A stretch of 64,000 bases of DNA from a virus. Lineage: Duplodnaviria > Heunggongvirae > Uroviricota > Caudoviricetes. Below are positions 5,182 to 32,211 of the stretch, in pieces; position 1 is the stretch's first letter; every line of letters starts with the position of its first letter. A program made the position numbers and the translations under genes. The notes beneath the pieces are model-generated. The model saw only the letters and a list, made by a program, of their open reading frames with translations, searched no databases and was not told where the DNA came from. The stretch lies in the IMG/VR virus record IMGVR_UViG_3300036768_001066; one strand, written 5' to 3'.

Positions 5182-5258
5182 GGTCTATGGGGCTGCAGGG
5201 TGTGGCCGCCCGCCTGTCACGCGGGAGATTCAGGTCGGTTCGATCCCGACATAGACCG
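5182..5258 (+). tRNA. tRNA-Asp (anticodon GTC)
   Basis: Hand-folded cloverleaf: acceptor ggtctat/atagacc, anticodon stem cccgc/gcggg with loop cTGTCac, T arm gtcgg-ttcgatc-ccgac, discriminator G. The 8-nt variable region is slightly unusual. Confidence 0.65.
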
Positions 5259-5383
5259 CAACACTCGAGGCCGATGGCCGACGGAGGCAAGGCACTGTAG
5301 GGAATACGGTCCGAGGTGGGAGTCCTCGATACTGGCGCAGTAGGAAATGACTGTTGTCCGAATCCCGCCAGAGAGTGTTAATT

Positions 5384-5452
5384 GGTGGCGCCTGATGGCA
5401 AGGTCCGGGACTGTCTCTCTCGGGATAGCGAGTTCGATCCCCGTCGCTACCG
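5384..5452 (+). tRNA. degenerate tRNA-like element (pseudo-tRNA, Asp-like GTC loop)
   Basis: Acceptor ggtggcg/cgctacc (one G-U), T arm gcgag-ttcgatc-cccgt with an A-C mismatch, anticodon-like hairpin cggga-ctgtctc-tctcg with pyrimidine at position 37, truncated D region; only 69 nt. Confidence 0.3.
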
Positions 5453-5592
5453 CCGAGTTTGTTCTTTGATATTGGTAGTGTAAAAGTGGGGCCTGAGGTA
5501 AGGCGTGCCGAGATTAGACAACTCGCGCATAGGACTATCCTCTTAGTGGAGCCACCGGGTCCTTGCTTTGCTGGATGTGCCGCGACCATTTT

Positions 5593-5666
5593 GGGGCCTT
5601 AGCTTAGATGGCTAAAGCGTTTGCCTGGCAGGCAAGAGATCACGGGTTCGAGTCCCATAGGCTCCA
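5593..5666 (+). tRNA. tRNA-Ala (anticodon GGC)
   Basis: Acceptor ggggcct/aggctcc with a G3:U70 pair (Ala identity element), D stem gctt/aagc, anticodon stem tttgc/gcaag with loop cTGGCag, T loop ttcgagt, discriminator A. Confidence 0.65.
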
Positions 5667-5689
5667 CATATTACAAGAACGACTAAAAT

Positions 5690-5768
5690 GCACCTGTGGC
5701 TGAGAGGCCCAAAGCAACGGTCTGCAAAACCGTACATAAGACCGCCGGTTCGAATCCGGCCAGGTGCT
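5690..5768 (+). tRNA. tRNA-like, best fold gives anticodon GCA (Cys) with an atypical 10-nt variable region
   Basis: Acceptor gcacctg/caggtgc perfect, anticodon stem acggt/accgt with loop cTGCAaa, T arm gccgg-ttcgaat-ccggc perfect. 10 unpaired nt (acataagacc) between the anticodon and T arms is non-canonical. Confidence 0.5.
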
Positions 5769-5779
5769 CAAGAAGGCAT

Positions 5780-5863
5780 GCTCCTGTCGCCTATTTGGTA
5801 GGGCACCAGACTTTCAATCTGGAGGCTACAAGCCGTGAGCGGGTTCGATCCCCGTCGGGAGTA
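5780..5863 (+). tRNA. tRNA with anticodon TTC (Glu) carrying a 16-nt class-II-like variable arm
   Basis: Acceptor gctcctg/cgggagt (two G-U), D stem gcct/gggc, anticodon stem ccaga/tctgg with loop cTTTCaa, variable arm aggctacaagccgtga (ggc-tacaa-gcc mini-hairpin), T arm gcggg-ttcgatc-cccgt, discriminator A. Same acceptor and T arm as the CTC copy downstream. Confidence 0.55.
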
Positions 5864-5911
5864 CTACAAAAACGCTATATTAGCGCGCCGCGGTGAAAGA
5901 CGCAGATAAAT

Positions 5912-5985
<74 letters not shown>

Positions 5986-6116
5986 CTAAACGAGAGCGCG
6001 CGCTGGAAAGTGTTGGACAAAGAGGGATCTGATTGTCCGGGAAACCCGTCTGGCTGCCCATCAGGACCGAGTGTTCGGATGATTCCTTCCACCTCTCCAA
6101 GGCTCTCGTTTTTCAT

Positions 6117-6190
6117 GGGGCGGTGGTCCAACTGGCTGGTCACCTGCCTTTGCAAGCAGGCTTATGAGGGTTCGAGTCCCTTCTGCTCCA
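6117..6190 (+). tRNA. tRNA-Ala-like (TGC-containing) with an 8-nt anticodon loop
   Basis: Acceptor ggggcgg/ctgctcc including G3:U70, anticodon stem cctgc/gcagg (identical to E. coli tRNA-Ala UGC) enclosing CTTTGCAA (8 nt rather than 7), T arm gaggg-ttcgagt-ccctt, discriminator A. Confidence 0.5.
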
Positions 6191-6417
6191 CTTTCTAAAT
6201 TTGGCCGCGTGTTTTCGGATCTGTCCGAGGGACATGAAGCAGGCTTTCATGAAAGCCTTCAAGAAAGTCTTTACCGATGCGAAACTCATCTGGGGTTCGG
6301 TAATCAGGAGAAGATATACAACTACAAGGAGGGATATGTCGAGCACCCGGTTACATGCGAGTCTCGCGGATGGGATTGCGTGGATCCGAAAAGCGCCAAG
6401 ATACTCGAGGCGTGCGG

Positions 6418-8443: not shown

Positions 8444-8708
8444 AACGGCTATATTTATATTTATAGAAGGCCGGTCGTACGCGGCGGGCTGTTGCACGCT
8501 GAGGAAATTCGCGTCATCTCTGCTTAGGAGGAGTGGGAGGCAGCAATGCCGGTATAGTACCACCGTAAGTGAAAGTCCTTCCGAGATGCAACCCAAACAG
8601 ACTTAGGCGGTGAGCAGGTCGATGATGGTCGGGTTGGGGCATAGTCAAATGTACGGCGCCTCGCAAGAGGAACAGAAACGCGATTATAGGCCTTCTTATT
8701 TTTAAAAC

Positions 8709-16333: not shown

Positions 16334-17431
16334 ATGGGCAGACTCATAGAGAACAAGTCAGTAATAACCAAGGACCCAAGCCACAAGGTATACTGCCAGG
16401 AACCATACGCGCAAGAACTTTACGACAAATACCAGGCCTACTTCGAGGGCCGCTCCATAGTCCCCAAAGACATGGTTGTGGGCCAGATATGCAAGGCCAG
16501 AGTAGACAAAGTCGACGGATCGATCGTCGTTGTTACAACGGAATCGTCCGCGAACATATTCCTCGACTACCAGAAGGAAAGCAGATTCCTCGAGAAAACC
16601 GGGCACACGCTCAAGCCGGGGCTGCAAGTGGATGTCCTGCTCGAGACAATCAACAGGGGCAATTACTACGGCTCTATAGAGAAGGCGTACATGATAACCC
16701 TGAAGCGAGACCTATTCGATTCTATGAAAACAGAGTTTACCGCTTACAAGGGCACCATCAAGTCCATAAACGATGGCGGCTTCATGGTCGACATCGCCGG
16801 GCTCGACTGCTTCATGCCAGGATCCCTGGCTGCCGCCAACAAGGTCCTCAACTTCGAGTCAATGCTCGGCAGGGAGGTCATGGTAATGGTGGAAAACTAC
16901 CTCGAATCGTCCGACATGTTCGTAGTGTCGAACAAGAAGTACATACAGAAGATAATCCCTTCGAAGATAAAGGAACTCGACCTCGGAGCGCAATTTACCG
17001 GGATCGCAACTGGGACTGTGGACTACGGCGTGTTCGTGGAGTGGGACGAGATGTTCACAGGGCTCCTGCACGAATCCGAGATTACTGACGGCGACTGGAG
17101 GAACATAAAGCCGGGAGACCAGATGAAGTTCTACATAAAGGAGATACGCGAGAACAACCGTATCATACTAAGTCAGAAGGGTCCATCGCCTGAGATTATG
17201 GCGCTGACCGAGTTCAAGGCCAAGTACGAGGGAGAGATTGTGACGGGAGAGATCAAGGACATCAAGCAGTTCGGGGCCTTTGTTGAGATGAAGAACAAGG
17301 TGACTGGATTGTTACCTACCAAGGAACTAAAGAAACTCGGACGTCTCAAAGTCGGCGACGACGTGGACGTTTACGTGAAATTCGTGGATGTTTCGGCTCG
17401 CAAGATCTACCTGAAGGCCGACGAAGAGTAA
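16334..17431 (+). CDS. ribosomal protein S1-like protein (multiple S1 RNA-binding domains)
   Basis: At least four S1-type repeats (VGQICKARVDKVDGSIVVV...; GTIKSINDGGFMVDIAGLDCFMPGS; TGIATGTVDYGVFVEWDEMFTGLLHESE; GEIVTGEIKDIKQFGAFVEMKNKVTGLLP). Motif gtatataataaag lies about 55 nt upstream. Confidence 0.7.
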   Translation: MGRLIENKSVITKDPSHKVYCQEPYAQELYDKYQAYFEGRSIVPKDMVVGQICKARVDKVDGSIVVVTTESSANIFLDYQKESRFLEKTGHTLKPGLQVDVLLETINRGNYYGSIEKAYMITLKRDLFDSMKTEFTAYKGTIKSINDGGFMVDIAGLDCFMPGSLAAANKVLNFESMLGREVMVMVENYLESSDMFVVSNKKYIQKIIPSKIKELDLGAQFTGIATGTVDYGVFVEWDEMFTGLLHESEITDGDWRNIKPGDQMKFYIKEIRENNRIILSQKGPSPEIMALTEFKAKYEGEIVTGEIKDIKQFGAFVEMKNKVTGLLPTKELKKLGRLKVGDDVDVYVKFVDVSARKIYLKADEE

Positions 17432-23043: not shown

Positions 23044-23496
23044 TTACTGGTTATGCTTATTTAAGCGGTTCATCTCTCTATCCGCCTCGCGGTTCTTTAT
23101 CGTCTCGCGCTTGTCGTGGAGCTTCTTGCCCTTGGCAACGGCTATACCGAGCTTGCAGATTCCCCTCTGGTTGAGGTACATCGACTTCACCACCACGGTA
23201 GTGCCCTTTATGAGCTTGCCGGCAATCCTCTTTATTTCGGTCTTGTTCAGCAGTAACTTCCTAACTCTCAATGGGTCGTGGTTGTCCGCGGCATCCTGGA
23301 GCGGGTCCACCCGCATCCCCTTGATGAACACCTCGCCCCCGTCTATGTAGGCGTACGCCTCGTTTATGCTCGCGTGGCCCTGGCGTATAGACTTGATTTC
23401 CGTGCCCACCAGCATGATGCCGGCCTCGTACTCCTCTATGAATTCGTACTCGAACTTCGCCTTGCGGTTCTCGAATCGTATGTTGTTGTCTGCCAT
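23044..23496 (-). CDS. smpB: SsrA-binding protein SmpB
   Basis: Full-length alignment by eye to bacterial SmpB (FENRKAKFEYEFIEEYEAGIMLVGTEIKSIRQGHASINEAYAYI...). The C-terminal tail KKLHDKRETIKNREADREMNRL is the canonical SmpB tail. It is a lone minus-strand gene in a plus-strand block. Confidence 0.88.
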   Translation of the reverse strand: MADNNIRFENRKAKFEYEFIEEYEAGIMLVGTEIKSIRQGHASINEAYAYIDGGEVFIKGMRVDPLQDAADNHDPLRVRKLLLNKTEIKRIAGKLIKGTTVVVKSMYLNQRGICKLGIAVAKGKKLHDKRETIKNREADREMNRLNKHNQ

Positions 23497-23524
23497 AATT
23501 GGTACGAAGATAATAAAAATCTGT

Positions 23525-23538
23525 GATATATAAAAAAA
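23525..23538 (+). promoter_or_regulatory. GATATATAAAAAAAC motif instance
   Basis: 15 nt upstream of ATG 23553. The palindromic ATATATA core may also serve the divergent smpB. Confidence 0.4.
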
Positions 23539-23552
23539 CTACTTCCGACAGG

Positions 23553-23870
23553 ATGAAAAGACTTAAGACATTCGAGAGCTTCATCGTGGAGAACTTCGCC
23601 GATCCATACCCGGAAAAGACGGGCGGATCAGGCAACACGTACTATCTGTATATGTTCGACAGCAGCACCGAGGGGTTCTCCGGCGAGGTCAGGGACGGCG
23701 ACGGCAAGTGTGTGTTCACGATAACACCCAAGATACTCGAGGACGGCGGAATGTCCACACCCGACGACGTCACCGGACTCAGGAAGTACCTGATAGAGAA
23801 GAAAAAGAAGCTGTCGGAGACGGACGTTATCGAGATAGCGCAATCAGCCCCGGTACAAACAACCGACTAA
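23553..23870 (+). CDS. small protein with the shared N-terminal leader (MKRLKTFESFIVEN)
   Basis: ATG at 23553 in frame with track ORF 23523..23870. Confidence 0.55.
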   Translation: MKRLKTFESFIVENFADPYPEKTGGSGNTYYLYMFDSSTEGFSGEVRDGDGKCVFTITPKILEDGGMSTPDDVTGLRKYLIEKKKKLSETDVIEIAQSAPVQTTD

Positions 23871-24856: not shown

Positions 24857-25792
24857 ATGAAGAAACTGAAGGACATATCAGAATTCGGGGGGCCTGGTGA
24901 GACCGCGCTCGACGCTGCTTTGAAAGCACCGAACGGCAAGAAGTCCTCCCTGCCCGCGAATTTGCACGCGATGGTCCGTACGCCGGAGTTCAAGACCTGG
25001 TTCGGTGACTGGGAGAACGACCCGGAGAACTCGAGCAAGGTTGTGGACAAGAACGGCGAGCCCATGGTCGTGTACCACGGAACTCCGTCATTTGGATTCA
25101 AGGAGTTCATGAATGACTACAAGATGGCAAGGGCGACTGACAACGAGACGAACGACCTCGGCATCTGGTTCACGAACGACCTGCGCGTGGCAAAGGAATT
25201 CATGTTCAATTCGTCTAAGGGTGGCATCTACGAGGTGTTCCTAAACATGAGGAACCCCAAGGTATTCAAGCCGGCTCTGTTCAACCAATCAGAGATAGAC
25301 GCACTGGAGCAGACAATACACGACTTGAACGTGGACAAGGTCTCACTCGGCTGGTCAGTCAACGATATGACGCCAGACAAGCGCGAGAAGTTCTACAAGA
25401 TAGAGAGGCAGATGAAGGACCTGCACGACCAGATCAGGCTGCTGAAGCACACGGATTCATTCGAGCAGTTCATGAACTACAGGGACAAATACACAGAATA
25501 CATAAACGGTCAGAAGGGGAAGCCTGGCGCATGGCTCGAGAGGTACATCAACACTAACAAGAAGGAGGCAAACCTTAAGCTATTGAAGGAGCTGACCGAC
25601 AGCCAGCACGACGGTTTTGCCATAGTAGATACCCGGTACGACGCACCGAGTAAGAACTCCAGGGTGAGCCAGTACTGCGTATTCGACTCGAAGAACATAA
25701 AGAGCGTCGACAACAACGGCAGGTTCGACCCGGGGACGAGTAATATATACGAGGGAATTCACATAAAAAGCATAGACAGCTTCGATATATAA
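24857..25792 (+). CDS. ADP-ribosyltransferase-fold protein, H-Y-E (PARP/Tpt1-KptA-like) type, paralog A; carries the leader (MKKLKDISEFGG)
   Basis: VVYHGTPSFGFKEF (H-G-T motif, compare KptA LYHGT and PARP HGS) followed by DLGIWFTNDLRVAKEF (compare PARP GKGIYFAD) and a GGIYEVF candidate catalytic Glu. Shares this core with 31351..32211 and 35536..36165. Confidence 0.5.
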   Translation: MKKLKDISEFGGPGETALDAALKAPNGKKSSLPANLHAMVRTPEFKTWFGDWENDPENSSKVVDKNGEPMVVYHGTPSFGFKEFMNDYKMARATDNETNDLGIWFTNDLRVAKEFMFNSSKGGIYEVFLNMRNPKVFKPALFNQSEIDALEQTIHDLNVDKVSLGWSVNDMTPDKREKFYKIERQMKDLHDQIRLLKHTDSFEQFMNYRDKYTEYINGQKGKPGAWLERYINTNKKEANLKLLKELTDSQHDGFAIVDTRYDAPSKNSRVSQYCVFDSKNIKSVDNNGRFDPGTSNIYEGIHIKSIDSFDI

Positions 25793-26885: not shown

Positions 26886-28616
26886 ATGGCAGAGCAACCA
26901 AGCATATTCAAGAAGAACCGACTCGCGATAGAACTGCTCATCGAGGACTCGATAAACTTCACCGTCGACAAGTTCCGCCAGAGCAGGACCAACTTCACGG
27001 TAGCATCCGCTTATGGCCAGATAATCTTTGTCCTGCACAACCTGGCGCAGATGATACTGTACTACATTGAGGACTCCATAACCGAGCTAAACATTAACAC
27101 GGCTACCAGGGCCAACTCGGTCACCGGTCTTGCGCGTCTCGCCGGGCACAACTCTACGAGGGCGATCTCTGCCGTCGGCGAGATCGGTCTCTCGATAAAG
27201 GCCGGGGCGGACATAGACATACCGGGGGGCACCGTCATACTGCCGAACTGGACCAAGATAAAGTGTGTGAACAACGGCCAGACATACATGCTCGACCTAC
27301 CTGGCGACGAGGTGCGCATACCTCTGGACGGGTCGAAGAACGGCACGCCAGTGAACATAATCCAGGGCCTGCTCGAATCGCAGAGCACTACCGGTACGGG
27401 CAAGCCATTACAGTCGTTCTCTCCCAACTTCAACCAGACAGTGCTCGTTGAACACTATCGTGTCAACGTGTACGTCAACGGGGAGAAGTGGAAGCTGTAC
27501 GACTCAATGTACGACATGCCGCGCGAGGCTAAAGGATGCCTTGTCAAGACTGGCATAAATTCCGGTATAGACGTTATATTCGGCAACGGTCACTTCGGCA
27601 AGATGCCTGAGCTCGGCGCCGAGATACTCGTCGAGTACGTGGTGTCATCCGGTCTCAACGGTAACCTCGTGCTCGCCACAGACGAGGAGGCCGTGTACAA
27701 GTGGGACGACGTAGGGTACAATCTGTACGGTGAGGAGCTCGACCTAAACGAACTTCTGACAGTCAGGAGTATCAACGCACCGGACTTTGGGTCCAACCCG
27801 GAGCTGCTCGAGCTCACCAGGCTCATAGCGCCGAAGACTTCCAGGTCGTACACGCTCGCTAACGAGGACCACTGCATCGTGTTCCTCGAGAAGTTCAACC
27901 AGTTCTCCATCATAGACGCGTACACCACGCCGAATGATGCGGACCTGACCGACGACAAGATAATCTACCTGTTCCTCGTGCCAGACGTCAAGAAGAAGCT
28001 GAAGTCTAACGAGAACTACTTCAACATAGACGAGTCGAGGTTCACACTCAACGACTTCCAGAAGGAGAAGGTGCTGACGTTGTTTGAGAGATCCGGGCAG
28101 AAGATAGTGAGCACCGAGCTGCAGATAGTGGACCCCAAGATAAGCAGGTTCGTCATAAACATAGCGCTGATAGTTTTTGACGACATCCCGCAGGATATAA
28201 TAAAGCAGGACGTCATAGAGAAGCTGAGCGACTACTTCTTGAACATCAGGCGAAGGGACCGTATCCCGCGCTCCGACCTCATCTCAATATTGGAGAACAT
28301 ACCGGGGATAGACTCGGTCAACATCTCGATAGTGTCAGAGATAGACGAGCGCCAGTATCAGCTTTCGCTGACGTCGGGAAGGAGCTCGACCGCCAACTTG
28401 GAGCCGCCTCGCATTGACGAGTTCGGCGACATACTCATACAGCCGGGCGAGCTCGCCATAGTGCGCGGAGGATGGACCGACAGGAGAGGCATAACATACG
28501 AGAAGGACGTAGACGACGAGGTACCGAGCTCGGTTAACATCGTCATCAAGAAGGTCATACCGAAGACGTACAACACGGGGGTAAACCAGAACACCAAATC
28601 TAATCTTAGAGGATAA
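26886..28616 (+). CDS. baseplate J-like (gp6/gpJ family) protein
   Basis: 576 aa. N-terminal ...FTVDKFRQSRTNFTVASAYGQ and C-terminal ...RRDRIPRSDLISILENIPGIDSVNISIV resemble conserved ends of the Baseplate_J family. Lies next to the gp25-like gene. Confidence 0.5.
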   Translation: MAEQPSIFKKNRLAIELLIEDSINFTVDKFRQSRTNFTVASAYGQIIFVLHNLAQMILYYIEDSITELNINTATRANSVTGLARLAGHNSTRAISAVGEIGLSIKAGADIDIPGGTVILPNWTKIKCVNNGQTYMLDLPGDEVRIPLDGSKNGTPVNIIQGLLESQSTTGTGKPLQSFSPNFNQTVLVEHYRVNVYVNGEKWKLYDSMYDMPREAKGCLVKTGINSGIDVIFGNGHFGKMPELGAEILVEYVVSSGLNGNLVLATDEEAVYKWDDVGYNLYGEELDLNELLTVRSINAPDFGSNPELLELTRLIAPKTSRSYTLANEDHCIVFLEKFNQFSIIDAYTTPNDADLTDDKIIYLFLVPDVKKKLKSNENYFNIDESRFTLNDFQKEKVLTLFERSGQKIVSTELQIVDPKISRFVINIALIVFDDIPQDIIKQDVIEKLSDYFLNIRRRDRIPRSDLISILENIPGIDSVNISIVSEIDERQYQLSLTSGRSSTANLEPPRIDEFGDILIQPGELAIVRGGWTDRRGITYEKDVDDEVPSSVNIVIKKVIPKTYNTGVNQNTKSNLRG

Positions 28617-29167
28617 TGAGATTTCTAAAGACATACGCCGGGCTCTTTGAGAGCGAGAATAGTGAGAAGAAGCTCGCGTGCGCGCTCGTATCATTCGACG
28701 TGCCACTTCTCAAGACGCTGCACTCTGCCATAGACAAGGAGGACCTCGACGAGAAAGGATTCGAGGATGAGCCGCACGTAACGCTGCTGTTCGGCCTTCA
28801 CCAGGACGAGGTCACGGCGGAACAAGCCTTCGCGTGCATGCGCAATTGCATGGGCGAGGACGGCTGCGGCGACATAACGCTCGGGCCCGTTTCAGTATTC
28901 TCCAACGACAAGTTCGACGTGCTAAAGTTCGATGCCATCGGGGATTGGCTGCATGCCACTAACAGAGAGCTGAAGGAACTGCCACACACAAACGAGTATC
29001 CAGACTACAAACCTCACTGCACGCTCGCATACCTGAAGCCAGGGCTCGGGCAGAAGTACGTTGCGCTTTTTAACGGTCTATTGTACAAAGTGAAGCCGAA
29101 AGAGTTTATATACTCAGACGCCGACAGGAACCAAACAAAAATGCCGATAGTACAAAATGCCGCTTAA
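28616..29167 (+). CDS. 2H phosphoesterase (LigT / 2'-5' RNA ligase / cyclic phosphodiesterase-like); carries the leader (MRFLKTYAGLFESEN)
   Basis: Two H-x-T-x motifs at the expected spacing: PHVTLLFG and PHCTLAYL. Confidence 0.65.
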   Translation: MRFLKTYAGLFESENSEKKLACALVSFDVPLLKTLHSAIDKEDLDEKGFEDEPHVTLLFGLHQDEVTAEQAFACMRNCMGEDGCGDITLGPVSVFSNDKFDVLKFDAIGDWLHATNRELKELPHTNEYPDYKPHCTLAYLKPGLGQKYVALFNGLLYKVKPKEFIYSDADRNQTKMPIVQNAA

Positions 29168-30259: not shown

Positions 30260-31354
30260 ATGAGACACCTAATAAACTTCAGACTATTCGAGGCCGAACA
30301 AAAGGACGGCCCAGTTATATTATATCTGCACGGACTTGATTCCAATCCAGGCGATAAGGGGGAATGGCTCGCGTCGCATTTCAGCAATGTGATTATGCCA
30401 CATGTGGATTATAGGAGGGAAGGATCCACCATATTCAACCAAATAATAAATCTTTTAAAAGGTAAGGAAGTATCATTGATAATAGGCAACTCGATGGGCG
30501 GGTTCCTCGCGTTTTGGCTGTGCAGAAAGCTGAACGTTCCAGGCATATTATTCAACCCGGCTTTGCATAAGCAATCGACCGATGTGCAAGTGGACCGAAC
30601 AGCAAGCGCCACCCCGACTATGACTGTTATACTCGGCAAGAAGGATACATGGATAGACCCCAATATTACGAAGAAGTGGCTCGCCGATAATTACAGCGGG
30701 AACACTGAGATAATAATGGACGATCTCGAGCACCGTATTTCTCGCGAAGAATTCCAGAAACACGTGCTGCAGCTCGTTAAGATGGACGAGAAGTCTGGCG
30801 AGATACTCGATCCGAAGAGAAACCAGTGGGTGGAGATAAATCCAAAGGAACACCCGGAACTTTCTAAGGAGTTCTTCGATCTAATATCGACAGCGTACTC
30901 AGAAATAGGTGGTCATGCAAAAATCAAAAAGCCAGAGGACGTCTTTGCCGACAAGGATTGGAACTTCTGGAGCGGAGTCGATATTCATGGAAGCCCCGAC
31001 CTCGATCTAATTGTGTTCGGACAGAAGACAAAATACGGTATAAAATTCTCCGGAGTCGGACACGACGGACAGAAGGACACGAAGAAAGTGTATCTTGAGC
31101 ATAAGGCTAAAGATTTATCTAAGATAGGTTACTACAGTGAGGTGTCCGGCAAGCTCGCGCAGATATTGATAAACAAGTATCACATCAACGTCATCAACGA
31201 CAAGGACGAGATAAAAAAGTTGATGCCAGGTAAAGATATAATGTTCTATGGCAAACATCCTACGGACCCAGATATGCTAGGCGACGGATGGTACGGTCGC
31301 GATATAGGCGGAAAAGAACACATAAAACTAATGGTGGGAAAACCAAAGATATGA
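30260..31354 (+). CDS. alpha/beta-hydrolase (YqiA-like esterase) fused to an unknown C-terminal domain; carries the leader (MRHLINFRLFEAEQ)
   Basis: VILYLHGLDSNPGDKG ... GNSMGGFLAF (GxSxG nucleophile elbow) ... typical of the YqiA/UPF0227 esterase family. Confidence 0.6.
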   Translation: MRHLINFRLFEAEQKDGPVILYLHGLDSNPGDKGEWLASHFSNVIMPHVDYRREGSTIFNQIINLLKGKEVSLIIGNSMGGFLAFWLCRKLNVPGILFNPALHKQSTDVQVDRTASATPTMTVILGKKDTWIDPNITKKWLADNYSGNTEIIMDDLEHRISREEFQKHVLQLVKMDEKSGEILDPKRNQWVEINPKEHPELSKEFFDLISTAYSEIGGHAKIKKPEDVFADKDWNFWSGVDIHGSPDLDLIVFGQKTKYGIKFSGVGHDGQKDTKKVYLEHKAKDLSKIGYYSEVSGKLAQILINKYHINVINDKDEIKKLMPGKDIMFYGKHPTDPDMLGDGWYGRDIGGKEHIKLMVGKPKI

Positions 31355-32211
31355 AGCACATAAAAACTTATAGCTTATTTGAGTCCGAGAATACCGATGG
31401 TTCTGTTTGGTATCATGGTACCGACAGTAAGTTTGACAAGTTTGATATGTCAAAAACTAAGAGCGGCCCATCGGCTTTCGGTATTTGGTTTGCTGATGAT
31501 GCAGAGCTTGCCAAGATGTTCGGAGAGAACATCATGAAATGCAAGCTGACTTACGAGAATCCGAAAGTTATAACTATGGACGAGTGGGACGCAATACGAA
31601 TGGAGCACACCAAGGATACCGAGTTTTTCAAAAATTGGAAGGCCAAGCTAATATCACAGGGATACGACGCGCTGTTCATCAAAGAACGTTTACAGAAGTT
31701 CGACGGTCACACGGTACGCGACGGTAACATGGTTGCAGTGTTCGATCAAGATGATGCAGAGATAATGAACGAGAATGTCAACGAGAATTTTACGAAGGCC
31801 GGACTCGGGAGCATGATACTAATGACCGGGGAGAAACAACCGGATGGGACGACCAGGCTCTACGCGATACCGATACAGAGAGTATTATCATACGGTAGGA
31901 AAAAAGCAGACAATACCGATGCACAGGATGCCAACATGGTTCTGCTTGGCGATGATTATTATAGGCTGACAATACAAGACGGTAAGATCAAGCCACAAAA
32001 GGTCGGGTTCAGTAGCAAGCCGAATATGCTCAAAGCGCTCGGAATGAGTGAGAAGAATCTATCCGGCGAACGGTTGAAAATCGTGCTGAACTCTAAGACG
32101 GGCAAGACACCTTTACACTGGCGTGCGCTCACTTACAGTTCCATGGGCAAGATGCTGTCAGAAATGGGCAAGGAAATAATGGAACTACCGAACATAAAGT
32201 GGTATAATTAA
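31351..32211 (+). CDS. ADP-ribosyltransferase-fold protein (H-Y-E / Tpt1-KptA-like), paralog B; carries the leader (MKHIKTYSLFESEN)
   Basis: SVWYHGTDSKFDKFD ... FGIWFADDAELAKMF ... LTYENPKV parallels paralog A. ATG at 31351 overlaps the upstream stop (ATGA). Confidence 0.5.
   Translation: MKHIKTYSLFESENTDGSVWYHGTDSKFDKFDMSKTKSGPSAFGIWFADDAELAKMFGENIMKCKLTYENPKVITMDEWDAIRMEHTKDTEFFKNWKAKLISQGYDALFIKERLQKFDGHTVRDGNMVAVFDQDDAEIMNENVNENFTKAGLGSMILMTGEKQPDGTTRLYAIPIQRVLSYGRKKADNTDAQDANMVLLGDDYYRLTIQDGKIKPQKVGFSSKPNMLKALGMSEKNLSGERLKIVLNSKTGKTPLHWRALTYSSMGKMLSEMGKEIMELPNIKWYN

What the first reader, a model, noticed from the sequence alone, without database searches (positions are those of the whole stretch)
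23044..23496. Phage-encoded SmpB with no tmRNA gene visible in the window
A full-length, canonical SmpB (including the C-terminal KRETIKNREADRE tail) is encoded as a lone minus-strand gene inside a plus-strand block. SmpB functions only with tmRNA (ssrA). I searched the window by eye for tmRNA hallmarks (5' GGGG...GGATTCGACGGG, tRNA-like 3' end ...TTCGA(A/T)TCC...CCACCA) and found T-arm-like sequences only inside the tRNA cluster. A phage carrying smpB could rescue ribosomes stalled on damaged or cleaved mRNAs during infection, or could titrate or hijack host tmRNA.
Basis: partly seen in the sequence, partly recalled or inferred. Interest (0 to 1): 0.6.

Follow-up and report, generated by a model that had tools for sequence, protein, structure and literature searches.

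The report
Huge-phage SmpB, tmRNA partner not nearby
A giant bacteriophage (genome of at least 374 kb) carries an intact, selectively maintained copy of the ribosome-rescue protein SmpB; its RNA partner (tmRNA) is absent from the 79 kb I could examine, but this kind of gene is already known in giant phages and in one relative the partner lies about 260 kb away, so the absence is unproven.

Summary
Window 23044-23496 (-) encodes a 150-aa SmpB that exceeds the Pfam and both NCBIfam equivalog cut-offs and keeps all invariant family residues, including the GKK..DKR tail. It is the only anti-oriented gene within +-10 kb. The same slot and orientation recur in related phage contigs down to 60% identity, with dN/dS 0.03-0.07. 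No tmRNA was found in the window or in 14.8 kb of added flanks (78,787 nt). The methods were ARAGORN at default and relaxed thresholds, Rfam at E<=5 (window) and E<=1 (flanks), and my own tRNA-like-domain scan. However, the exact protein lies on a 373,759-bp contig, so only about 21% of the genome was seen. In the same clade, complete Lak-A1 has SmpB plus a divergent tmRNA 258-284 kb away, which default ARAGORN misses and Rfam confirms. Complete LR756502.1 has SmpB and no detectable tmRNA. Huge-phage SmpB and tmRNA were already reported (Al-Shayeb 2020). Verdict: a real, functional phage SmpB and a new member of a known kind; "no tmRNA" is unresolved for this genome. Side finding, possibly more novel: a 232-nt minimal RNase P RNA at 8465-8696, one of a covarying family embedded in phage tRNA arrays.

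The parts
23044..23496 (-). smpB coding sequence (150 aa, SsrA-binding protein)
   Evidence: ORF; Pfam, NCBIfam equivalogs, PDB; all 18 invariant family columns and the GKK..DKR tail retained; dN/dS 0.03-0.07.
23497..23552 (.). 56-nt AT-rich divergent intergenic region between smpB (-) and the next + strand gene (23553..23870). Presumed smpB promoter region; this is inferred, not shown.
   Evidence: Sequence read; gene call. The sigma-70 and terminator scan found nothing above the shuffle expectation. Bacteroidota-type and phage promoters are not covered by that tool.
5182..6191 (+). Context, no functional link shown: cluster of six tRNA genes (Asp-GTC, Ala-GGC, Cys-GCA, Glu-TTC, Glu-CTC, and an Ala-like tRNA with an 8-nt anticodon loop). 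No tmRNA among them.
8465..8696 (+). Context, no functional link shown: 232-nt minimal RNase P RNA (catalytic domain only). From established knowledge, RNase P matures the 5' ends of both tRNAs and tmRNA.
   Evidence: RF00373, 46.2 bits, E 6.8e-10, CR-I/IV/V present; homologs and covariation.
16334..17431 (+). Context: 365-aa protein with C-terminal S1 RNA-binding domains, another translation- or RNA-related gene, syntenic with smpB in relatives.

Best explanation
The gene encodes an active SmpB that the phage expresses during infection of a Bacteroidota host. SmpB loads alanyl-tmRNA into the empty A site of ribosomes stalled on broken or stop-less mRNAs. This frees ribosomes for phage protein synthesis (canonical trans-translation). 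Shown here: family membership, intact tmRNA-binding and tail residues, vertical inheritance and purifying selection in a phage lineage, and a Bacteroidota affinity. Inferred: that it is expressed, binds a tmRNA and rescues ribosomes. The tmRNA partner is not linked to smpB. I lean slightly towards a phage tmRNA elsewhere in the unseen ~295 kb, as in Lak-A1 (about 0.45). Use of the host tmRNA alone is nearly as likely (about 0.40) and is listed as the first rival. The stated confidence of 0.45 is for the full statement including an unlinked phage tmRNA; confidence that the protein acts in canonical trans-translation with some tmRNA is about 0.85. The conserved anti-orientation suggests smpB is transcribed separately from the surrounding structural-gene block.
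For: All 18 invariant and 43 of 53 highly conserved Bacteroidota SmpB columns are kept, including equivalents of E. coli N17, L91, K124, G132-K134 and D137-R139. dN/dS is 0.072, 0.035 and 0.025 among relatives of 92-98% identity. The slot and orientation are the same in relatives of 98%, 92%, 64% and 60% identity. The nearest cellular homologs are Cytophagales and Flavobacteriales SmpBs at 50-55%. The phage belongs to the Bacteroidota-infecting huge-phage clade with Lak, LR7565xx, PAU and pT24. Among deposited phages, genuine SmpB carriers are the >500-kb genomes of that clade. For an unlinked phage tmRNA: Lak-A1 has a tmRNA at 223026-223421 (-) (Rfam RF00023, 54.0 bits, GA 47, E 3.5e-20, tag DDEIDFRMAA*), 258-284 kb from its smpB. 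Only 78,787 of 373,759 nt were scanned here. Published megaphages carry tmRNAs.
Against: No tmRNA was found in the 79 kb examined, which includes a tRNA cluster and an RNase P RNA where one might expect it. No tmRNA lies within +-10 kb of smpB in any relative. LR756502.1, a closed genome, has SmpB but no detectable tmRNA, so a phage tmRNA is not obligatory in this clade. Expression, tmRNA binding and rescue activity are untested.
Confidence: 0.45

Rival explanations
1. SmpB-only strategy: the phage encodes no tmRNA. Its SmpB pairs with the abundant, stable host tmRNA, which keeps or boosts rescue capacity after host gene expression is shut off or when defence nucleases cut mRNAs and tRNAs.
For: No tmRNA in 21% of the genome, including the tRNA cluster. 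Closed genome LR756502.1 has SmpB and 46 tRNAs but no tmRNA, at ARAGORN thresholds that recover the Lak tmRNA with zero false positives, by my descriptor scan, and by Rfam over the 150 kb holding all its tRNAs. The phage SmpB keeps the Bacteroidota-type surface residues, so host tmRNA should be compatible. RNA-repair-type genes lie nearby or in relatives: a 2H-phosphoesterase-like gene, RNA ligase next to smpB in L010/L012, and Thg1.
Against: 79% of this genome is unseen. Lak-A1 shows smpB and tmRNA can be more than 250 kb apart and that clade tmRNAs are divergent enough to escape default tools. Rfam covered only 150 of 642 kb of LR756502.1.
Confidence: 0.4
2. Antagonist or decoy: the phage SmpB sequesters host tmRNA or occupies stalled ribosomes unproductively. 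This would block host trans-translation, for example to stop tagging of phage proteins or to disable a rescue-dependent defence.
For: A few lineage-specific substitutions occur at positions conserved in Bacteroidota SmpBs (Y->L at residue 66, P->V at 103, K->H at 41).
Against: Every invariant residue is intact, including the C-terminal tail motif needed for accommodation and tagging (established knowledge of the E. coli DKR motif). The substitutions are conservative, and E. coli itself differs at those positions. A decoy would be expected to lose tail function.
Confidence: 0.07
3. Non-functional passenger: a recent host-derived fragment, an assembly chimera or bacterial contamination.
For: Many 'phage' database SmpB hits are of this kind. 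Enterobacterial, staphylococcal and Acinetobacter prophage records carry host smpB at a record end, and many hits are short fragments.
Against: The same sequence was assembled independently in two samples on contigs of 75.7 and 373.8 kb. The gene is flanked on both sides by phage genes. It is syntenic in relatives from at least five other datasets. dN/dS is 0.03-0.07. It is only about 55% identical to any bacterial SmpB.
Confidence: 0.02
4. A tmRNA-independent role: the phage uses the SmpB fold for another RNA or ribosome interaction.
For: No direct evidence. It is kept only because no partner tmRNA was found.
Against: The conservation pattern is that of canonical SmpB across the whole length, above equivalog cut-offs.
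Confidence: 0.05

Closest known systems
SmpB genes of huge phages (Lak megaphages; LR756501-LR756504 and LR745206 from Al-Shayeb et al. 2020, PMC7162821)
   Same: Same protein family in the same broad clade of very large phages that infect Bacteroidota. The paper lists SmpB and tmRNAs as huge-phage translation genes, and its GenBank supplements annotate SsrA-binding proteins in at least 8 genomes. In Lak-A1, Lak-B5 and LR756502.1, as here, smpB lies some kb from a tRNA cluster and is not next to a tmRNA.
   Different: Only 42-47% identical to those phage SmpBs. In an NJ tree the present lineage (P0001-P0006) forms its own clade and is not sister to them. Each phage group is at least as close to bacterial Bacteroidota SmpBs, so separate acquisitions are possible. 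No DNA-level relative exists among deposited phages.
Bacterial SmpB of Bacteroidota (for example Reichenbachiella, Cyclobacteriaceae, Echinicola, Flavobacteriales)
   Same: 50-55% identity over about 95% of the length. All invariant residues and the C-terminal tail are shared.
   Different: Encoded in a phage structural-gene block and anti-oriented to its neighbours. It carries a handful of lineage-specific substitutions. No tmRNA gene was found in the 79 kb examined.
Phage-encoded ribosomal protein bS21 in Bacteroidetes phages (Chen et al. 2022, PMC9723584)
   Same: A single host-derived translation gene placed on the reverse strand inside a forward-strand block of structural genes, in large phages of Bacteroidetes (abstract). 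This is an analogy of arrangement and strategy, not homology.
   Different: A different protein and a different step (initiation versus rescue). Expression was measured for bS21; none is available here.
Host smpB at the edge of prophage records (enterobacterial, staphylococcal and Acinetobacter 'phage' entries)
   Same: Same protein family, found in records labelled as phage.
   Different: In those records smpB sits at a record end and is most simply read as host DNA beside an integration site (ssrA is a known attachment site, from established knowledge). Here the gene is internal to a lytic-type huge phage genome and has diverged from all bacterial copies.

Membership tests
SmpB (SsrA-binding protein; PF01668 / TIGR00086 / NF003843) | Profile match above the curated cut-offs over the full domain length | tested here: met
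   Pfam 166 bits against 27, profile 3-142 of 143. NF003843 170 against 130 and TIGR00086 163.5 against 119, both equivalog models.
SmpB (SsrA-binding protein; PF01668 / TIGR00086 / NF003843) | Conserved tmRNA- and ribosome-contact residues and the basic C-terminal tail (GKK..DKR motif) | tested here: met
   All 18 invariant columns of 114 Bacteroidota homologs are retained, including equivalents of E. coli N17, L91, K124, G132-K134 and D137-R139. 43 of 53 columns with at least 85% conservation are kept, and the rest are conservative changes.
SmpB (SsrA-binding protein; PF01668 / TIGR00086 / NF003843) | SmpB beta-barrel fold | not tested
   No structure was predicted. Sequence similarity to 15 solved SmpB chains (best 7ljp, E 5e-36, residues 9-148) makes the fold very likely.
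SmpB (SsrA-binding protein; PF01668 / TIGR00086 / NF003843) | Binds tmRNA and supports trans-translation | not testable with these tools
   Needs biochemistry or genetic complementation.
Complete phage-encoded trans-translation system (SmpB plus tmRNA in one genome) | A tmRNA gene (tRNA-like domain plus tag reading frame) in the same genome | tested here: inconclusive
   None in 78,787 nt (window plus flanks) by ARAGORN at default down to -ps88, by Rfam at E<=5 (window) and E<=1 (flanks), or by my descriptor scan. About 295 kb of the 373,759-bp contig could not be retrieved. Positive controls worked: E. coli ssrA and the Lak-A1 tmRNA.
Huge phage of the Lak / LR7565xx / PAU-pT24 clade | Genome over 200 kb with phage structural genes and clade-specific large proteins | tested here: met
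   The exact SmpB lies on a 373,759-bp contig. T4 gp13-like, baseplate wedge and tail proteins are present. The 1162-aa protein matches phrog_29329 (E 1e-151) and LR756500.1, LR756502.1, Lak, PAU and pT24.

The most novel reading that the evidence does not exclude
This phage lineage, like the closed genome LR756502.1, encodes SmpB but no tmRNA. It would then be a virus that supplies only the protein half of the trans-translation machine and commandeers the host's tmRNA. This could be part of a wider RNA and translation maintenance kit (tRNAs, its own minimal RNase P ribozyme, Thg1, RNA ligase and phosphoesterase genes) that counters host shut-off or nuclease-based defence.
Probability: 0.4. 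Interest if true: 0.55.

Novelty: new member of a known kind. Interest (0 to 1): 0.3.

Why it matters
SmpB in giant phages has received one sentence in the literature I could search, and none of those papers examines whether it comes with its RNA partner. This analysis shows three things. First, the gene is stably inherited and under purifying selection in a phage lineage. Second, smpB and tmRNA are unlinked where both exist. Third, default ARAGORN, the tool used in the huge-phage surveys I read, misses at least one clade tmRNA (Lak-A1), so tmRNA counts from such scans may be too low. If some giant phages truly carry SmpB alone, that would show a virus tuning host ribosome rescue with a single protein. 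That can be tested by complementation and by pull-down of host tmRNA. For this window alone, though, the finding is an ordinary example of a known class. The minimal RNase P RNA found nearby may be the more valuable lead.

Tried and rejected
1. Retrieving the rest of the genome. Exact look-ups of two end-of-window proteins failed. Two other proteins extended the sequence by only 7.0 and 7.8 kb.
2. DNA-level relatives among deposited phages: none. Viral-contig relatives of SmpB: only two hits at 43% identity.
3. ARAGORN at very relaxed thresholds (-ps80 and -ps70) produced 14 to several hundred spurious 'tmRNAs' and was discarded. Only -ps97 to -ps88 is clean.
4. Single-sequence nhmmer with the E. 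coli or Lak tmRNA found nothing, not even the Lak tmRNA with the E. coli query, so it was too insensitive to be informative.
5. Orphan T-arms in LR756502.1 were inspected as possible tmRNA 3' ends and rejected because none has a G3:U70 acceptor.
6. The Jug-phage paper (genomes of similar size), the Lak paper and two jumbo-phage reviews do not mention SmpB, tmRNA or RNase P.
7. The sigma-70 promoter and terminator scan around smpB found nothing above chance.
8. A full-length custom tmRNA covariance model was not attempted, because 374 positions exceed the calibration limit.
9. For the RNase P side finding: an exact 18-mer search found nothing, L042 was a chance coding match, and the strict motif pair is absent from Lak-A1 and LR756502.1.

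Full report
**The observation**

- It matches Pfam SmpB (PF01668) at 166 bits over profile positions 3-142 of 143.
- It exceeds the curated cut-offs of both NCBIfam equivalog models: NF003843 at 170 against 130, and TIGR00086 at 163.5 against 119.
- It aligns to 15 solved SmpB chains; the best is 7ljp at E 5e-36.

No tmRNA is in the window.
- ARAGORN reports six tRNAs at 5182-6191 and no tmRNA.
- Rfam finds none at gathering score or at E<=5, which includes the permuted models.

On the identical Logan contig, all called genes within +-10 kb point the opposite way to smpB.

**What the genome is**

The exact protein (P0001) occurs on two contigs, one of 75,735 bp (Logan) and one of 373,759 bp (JGI). 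This is therefore a huge phage, and the window is about 17% of it.
- The window encodes T4 gp13-like, baseplate-wedge and tail proteins, a PIF1-type helicase, an S1-domain protein and many large proteins without known domains.
- The 1162-aa protein at 44460-47948 matches phrog_29329 (E 1e-151). By tblastn it also matches LR756500.1 (34.5% identity), LR756502.1, LR745206.1, LR756501.1, the Lak megaphages, Sphingomonas phage PAU and phages of Tenacibaculum, Chryseobacterium and Flavobacterium.
- That is the clade of very large phages whose cultured or predicted hosts are mostly Bacteroidota.
- No deposited phage is similar at the DNA level.

**Is the gene functional?**

Homologs of 98%, 96%, 92%, 64% and 60% identity exist on other metagenomic contigs. 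In every one I fetched:
- smpB occupies the same slot, between a small gene next to a DUF5661 gene on one side and a conserved pair of small genes followed by the gp13-like gene on the other;
- smpB is anti-oriented to its neighbours.

In two relatives further genes follow smpB on its strand, including an RNA ligase (PF09414) in L010 and L012.

Pairwise Nei-Gojobori estimates give dN/dS of 0.072 (window against L004; dS 0.28) and 0.035 and 0.025 for the 92%-identity relatives.

I aligned the protein against 114 mostly Bacteroidota homologs.
- It keeps all 18 invariant columns and 43 of 53 columns with at least 85% conservation.
- The retained positions include equivalents of E. coli N17, L91, K124, G132-K134 and D137-R139.
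- The ten differences are conservative.

The gene is therefore an inherited, selected and apparently fully competent SmpB, not a decaying host fragment.

**Origin**

After the phage-lineage homologs, the best matches are SmpBs of Cytophagales, Flavobacteriales and Chitinophagales at 50-55% identity. This fits a Bacteroidota host.

In the phage collection, genuine SmpB carriers are all 15 Lak genomes and LR756501 to LR756504 and LR745206. The other hits have smpB at the end of prophage records or lie on short fragments.

In an NJ tree, P0001-P0006 form one clade that is not sister to the Lak or LR756502 SmpBs. Each phage group is at least as close to bacterial SmpBs. A single ancestral phage SmpB is not supported, although the tree has little resolving power.

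**Where is the tmRNA?**

I extended the window by 7,021 nt on the left (L014) and 7,766 nt on the right (L013). Both joins are 100% identical. ARAGORN, and Rfam at E<=1, found no tmRNA in the extensions. No tRNA or tmRNA lies within +-10 kb of smpB in any relative. In total 78,787 of 373,759 nt (21%) were examined.

To judge what this negative means, I assembled two complete clade genomes that carry SmpB.

*Lak-A1 (MK250016.1, 541,643 bp)*
- Default ARAGORN found 32 tRNAs and no tmRNA.
- I wrote my own scan: a 5-bp T-arm with a TTCRANN loop, a perfect 7-bp acceptor partner 200-550 nt upstream, and G3:U70. It recovered an E. coli ssrA control.
- It flagged Lak-A1 223030-223421 (-), with 5' GGGGACA and 3' TCCGG-TTCGACT-CCGGA-TGTCTCC-A.
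- Rfam confirms it as tmRNA RF00023 over the full model: 54.0 bits, gathering score 47, E 3.5e-20.
- ARAGORN calls it as soon as thresholds are lowered to 97%, with tag DDEIDFRMAA*. It is the only hit from -ps97 to -ps88.
- It lies 258-284 kb from the Lak-A1 smpB at 507053-507493.

*LR756502.1 (642,428 bp)*
- ARAGORN found 46 tRNAs and no tmRNA, at default or from -ps97 to -ps88.
- No orphan T-arm has a G3:U70 acceptor.
- Rfam at gathering score found no tmRNA in the 150 kb that hold all its tRNAs.

*What follows*
- The Rfam model can see the divergent Lak tmRNA, so its silence on our 79 kb is meaningful.
- smpB and tmRNA are unlinked where both occur, so absence from a window says little about the genome.
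- At least one closed genome may truly have SmpB alone.

**What is known**

Al-Shayeb et al. [quoted passage not shown] Their GenBank supplements annotate SsrA-binding proteins in at least eight genomes, several with best hits in Cytophagales or Sphingobacteriales. Mar_Mega_1 and phage G each have one annotated tmRNA. The Lak paper, the Jug-phage paper and two jumbo-phage reviews do not mention SmpB or tmRNA. The closest analogue in arrangement is the reverse-strand bS21 gene inside a structural block of Bacteroidetes phages.

**Mechanism**

The best-supported reading is canonical trans-translation. The phage supplies SmpB so that ribosomes stalled on truncated or stop-less mRNAs are released during infection. 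Family membership, residue conservation, inheritance and selection are shown here. Expression, tmRNA binding and rescue are inferred.

The partner is either an unlinked phage tmRNA (about 0.45) or the host tmRNA (about 0.40). A decoy role (0.07) is disfavoured by the intact tail. A passenger or artefact (0.02) is excluded by synteny, selection and independent assemblies.

**Verdict**

The SmpB is real and functional, and it is a new member of a known kind. "No tmRNA" is confirmed for the window but unresolved for the genome. Interest is modest (0.3). It would rise to about 0.55 if a closed genome of this lineage proved to lack a tmRNA.

**Side finding: a minimal RNase P RNA**

At 8465-8696 (+), in a gap 2.3 kb downstream of the tRNA cluster, lies a 232-nt RNA.
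- It is closed by an 8-bp P1 helix (AGAAGGCC/GGCCUUCU).
- It matches the archaeal RNase P model end to end at 46.2 bits, E 6.8e-10 for the whole window (gathering score 84).
- It has CR-I (GAGGAAAUUCG), CR-IV (AGUCAAAUG) and CR-V (ACAGAAACGCGAUUA). The specificity domain is reduced to a few tens of nucleotides.

Homologs exist elsewhere.
- A 229-nt homolog on a 186-kb viral contig matches bacterial class A RNase P at E 1.5e-13.
- A motif-spaced scan of metagenomes gave 23 hits. About ten of them are minimal forms of 194-305 nt.
- In a 12-sequence alignment, RNAalifold predicts 28 pairs, 16 with compensatory double changes. These include the long-range helix joining the CR-I and CR-V regions, which is P4.
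- Nearly all copies sit on the same strand inside dense tRNA arrays, for example 15 tRNAs in 4.5 kb and 17 in 10.7 kb.
- Neighbouring genes are phage-like or RNA-repair genes: Tpt1/KptA, polynucleotide kinase-phosphatase and HNH endonuclease.
- I found no description of this in the literature I could search.

It looks like a ribozyme carried by phage tRNA arrays for their own 5' processing, and it deserves its own follow-up.

Noticed in passing
window 8465-8696 (+); homologs at L043 1367-1595 (-), L045 2832-3048 (+), L046 23-258 (-), L051 3963-4176 (+), L053 1484-1719 (-), L056 3663-3887 (+), L059 3212-3405 (-), L063 8534-8838 (-), L048 1130-1403 (-), L049 480-744 (-), L058 6413-6689 (-): A family of minimal RNase P RNAs (194-305 nt, catalytic domain only, specificity domain collapsed). 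CR-I/IV/V are conserved, and 16 of 28 predicted pairs show compensatory changes, including P4. Copies sit on the same strand inside or beside dense tRNA arrays on phage-like contigs. The Rfam matches are far above chance (E 6.8e-10 and 1.5e-13) but below gathering scores. I found nothing on this in the literature searched. It may be more novel than the SmpB.
   Followed up: yes
Lak-A1, MK250016.1 223026-223421 (-) = L022 25026-25421 (-): A divergent tmRNA (Rfam RF00023, 54.0 bits, E 3.5e-20; tag DDEIDFRMAA*) that default ARAGORN misses. It lies 2-3 kb from the CTA suppressor tRNAs and 258-284 kb from smpB. The main text of the Lak paper does not mention it. It implies that ARAGORN-based tmRNA counts for huge phages may be too low.
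   Followed up: yes
window 6117-6191 (+): A tRNA with an alanine-type acceptor (G3:U70) and an 8-nt anticodon loop (CUUUGCAA). ARAGORN calls it tRNA-?(Gln|Ala) with anticodon 'ttgc'; Rfam scores it as tRNA at 42.9 bits. It could be a quadruplet-decoding or frameshift-suppressor tRNA, or simply an odd tRNA-Ala(UGC).
   Followed up: partly
LR756502.1 434685-435091 = L037 38685-39091 (+): A GOLLD RNA (RF02032, 275 bits) about 10 nt upstream of a tRNA in the 642-kb phage genome.
   Followed up: no
Lak-A1 and LR756502.1, positions listed (for example LR756502.1 388650, 390946, 391034, 401863, 434130, 609690; Lak-A1 29244, 30005, 111463, 215538, 216067): GC-rich T-arm motifs outside ARAGORN-annotated tRNAs, mostly near tRNA clusters. 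They are probably non-canonical or interrupted tRNA genes that standard tools miss.
   Followed up: no
L010 10499-11918 and L012 532-1951; L005 10450-11012: In more distant relatives, smpB is followed on its own strand by extra genes: a 127-aa protein plus an RNA ligase (PF09414), or two small ORFs. This forms a small anti-oriented islet that this window lacks.
   Followed up: no
L014 4058-4867 (about 2.2-3.0 kb left of the window start); window 28616-29167 (+); window 24857-25792 and about 31351-32211 (+): Other RNA, translation or conflict-related genes are nearby: a Thg1-like tRNA-His guanylyltransferase beside NUDIX and CoaE-like genes, a weak 2H-phosphoesterase / 2'-5' RNA ligase / Acb1-like protein, and two ART-PolyVal proteins.
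   Followed up: no
'phages' collection records such as MK416011.1 49-471, NC_049454.1 33369-33791 and KC595279.1 43-453: Many 'phage' SmpB hits lie at the very end of prophage-derived records. They are most simply read as host smpB next to the integration site, which matters for anyone counting phage SmpBs.
   Followed up: partly
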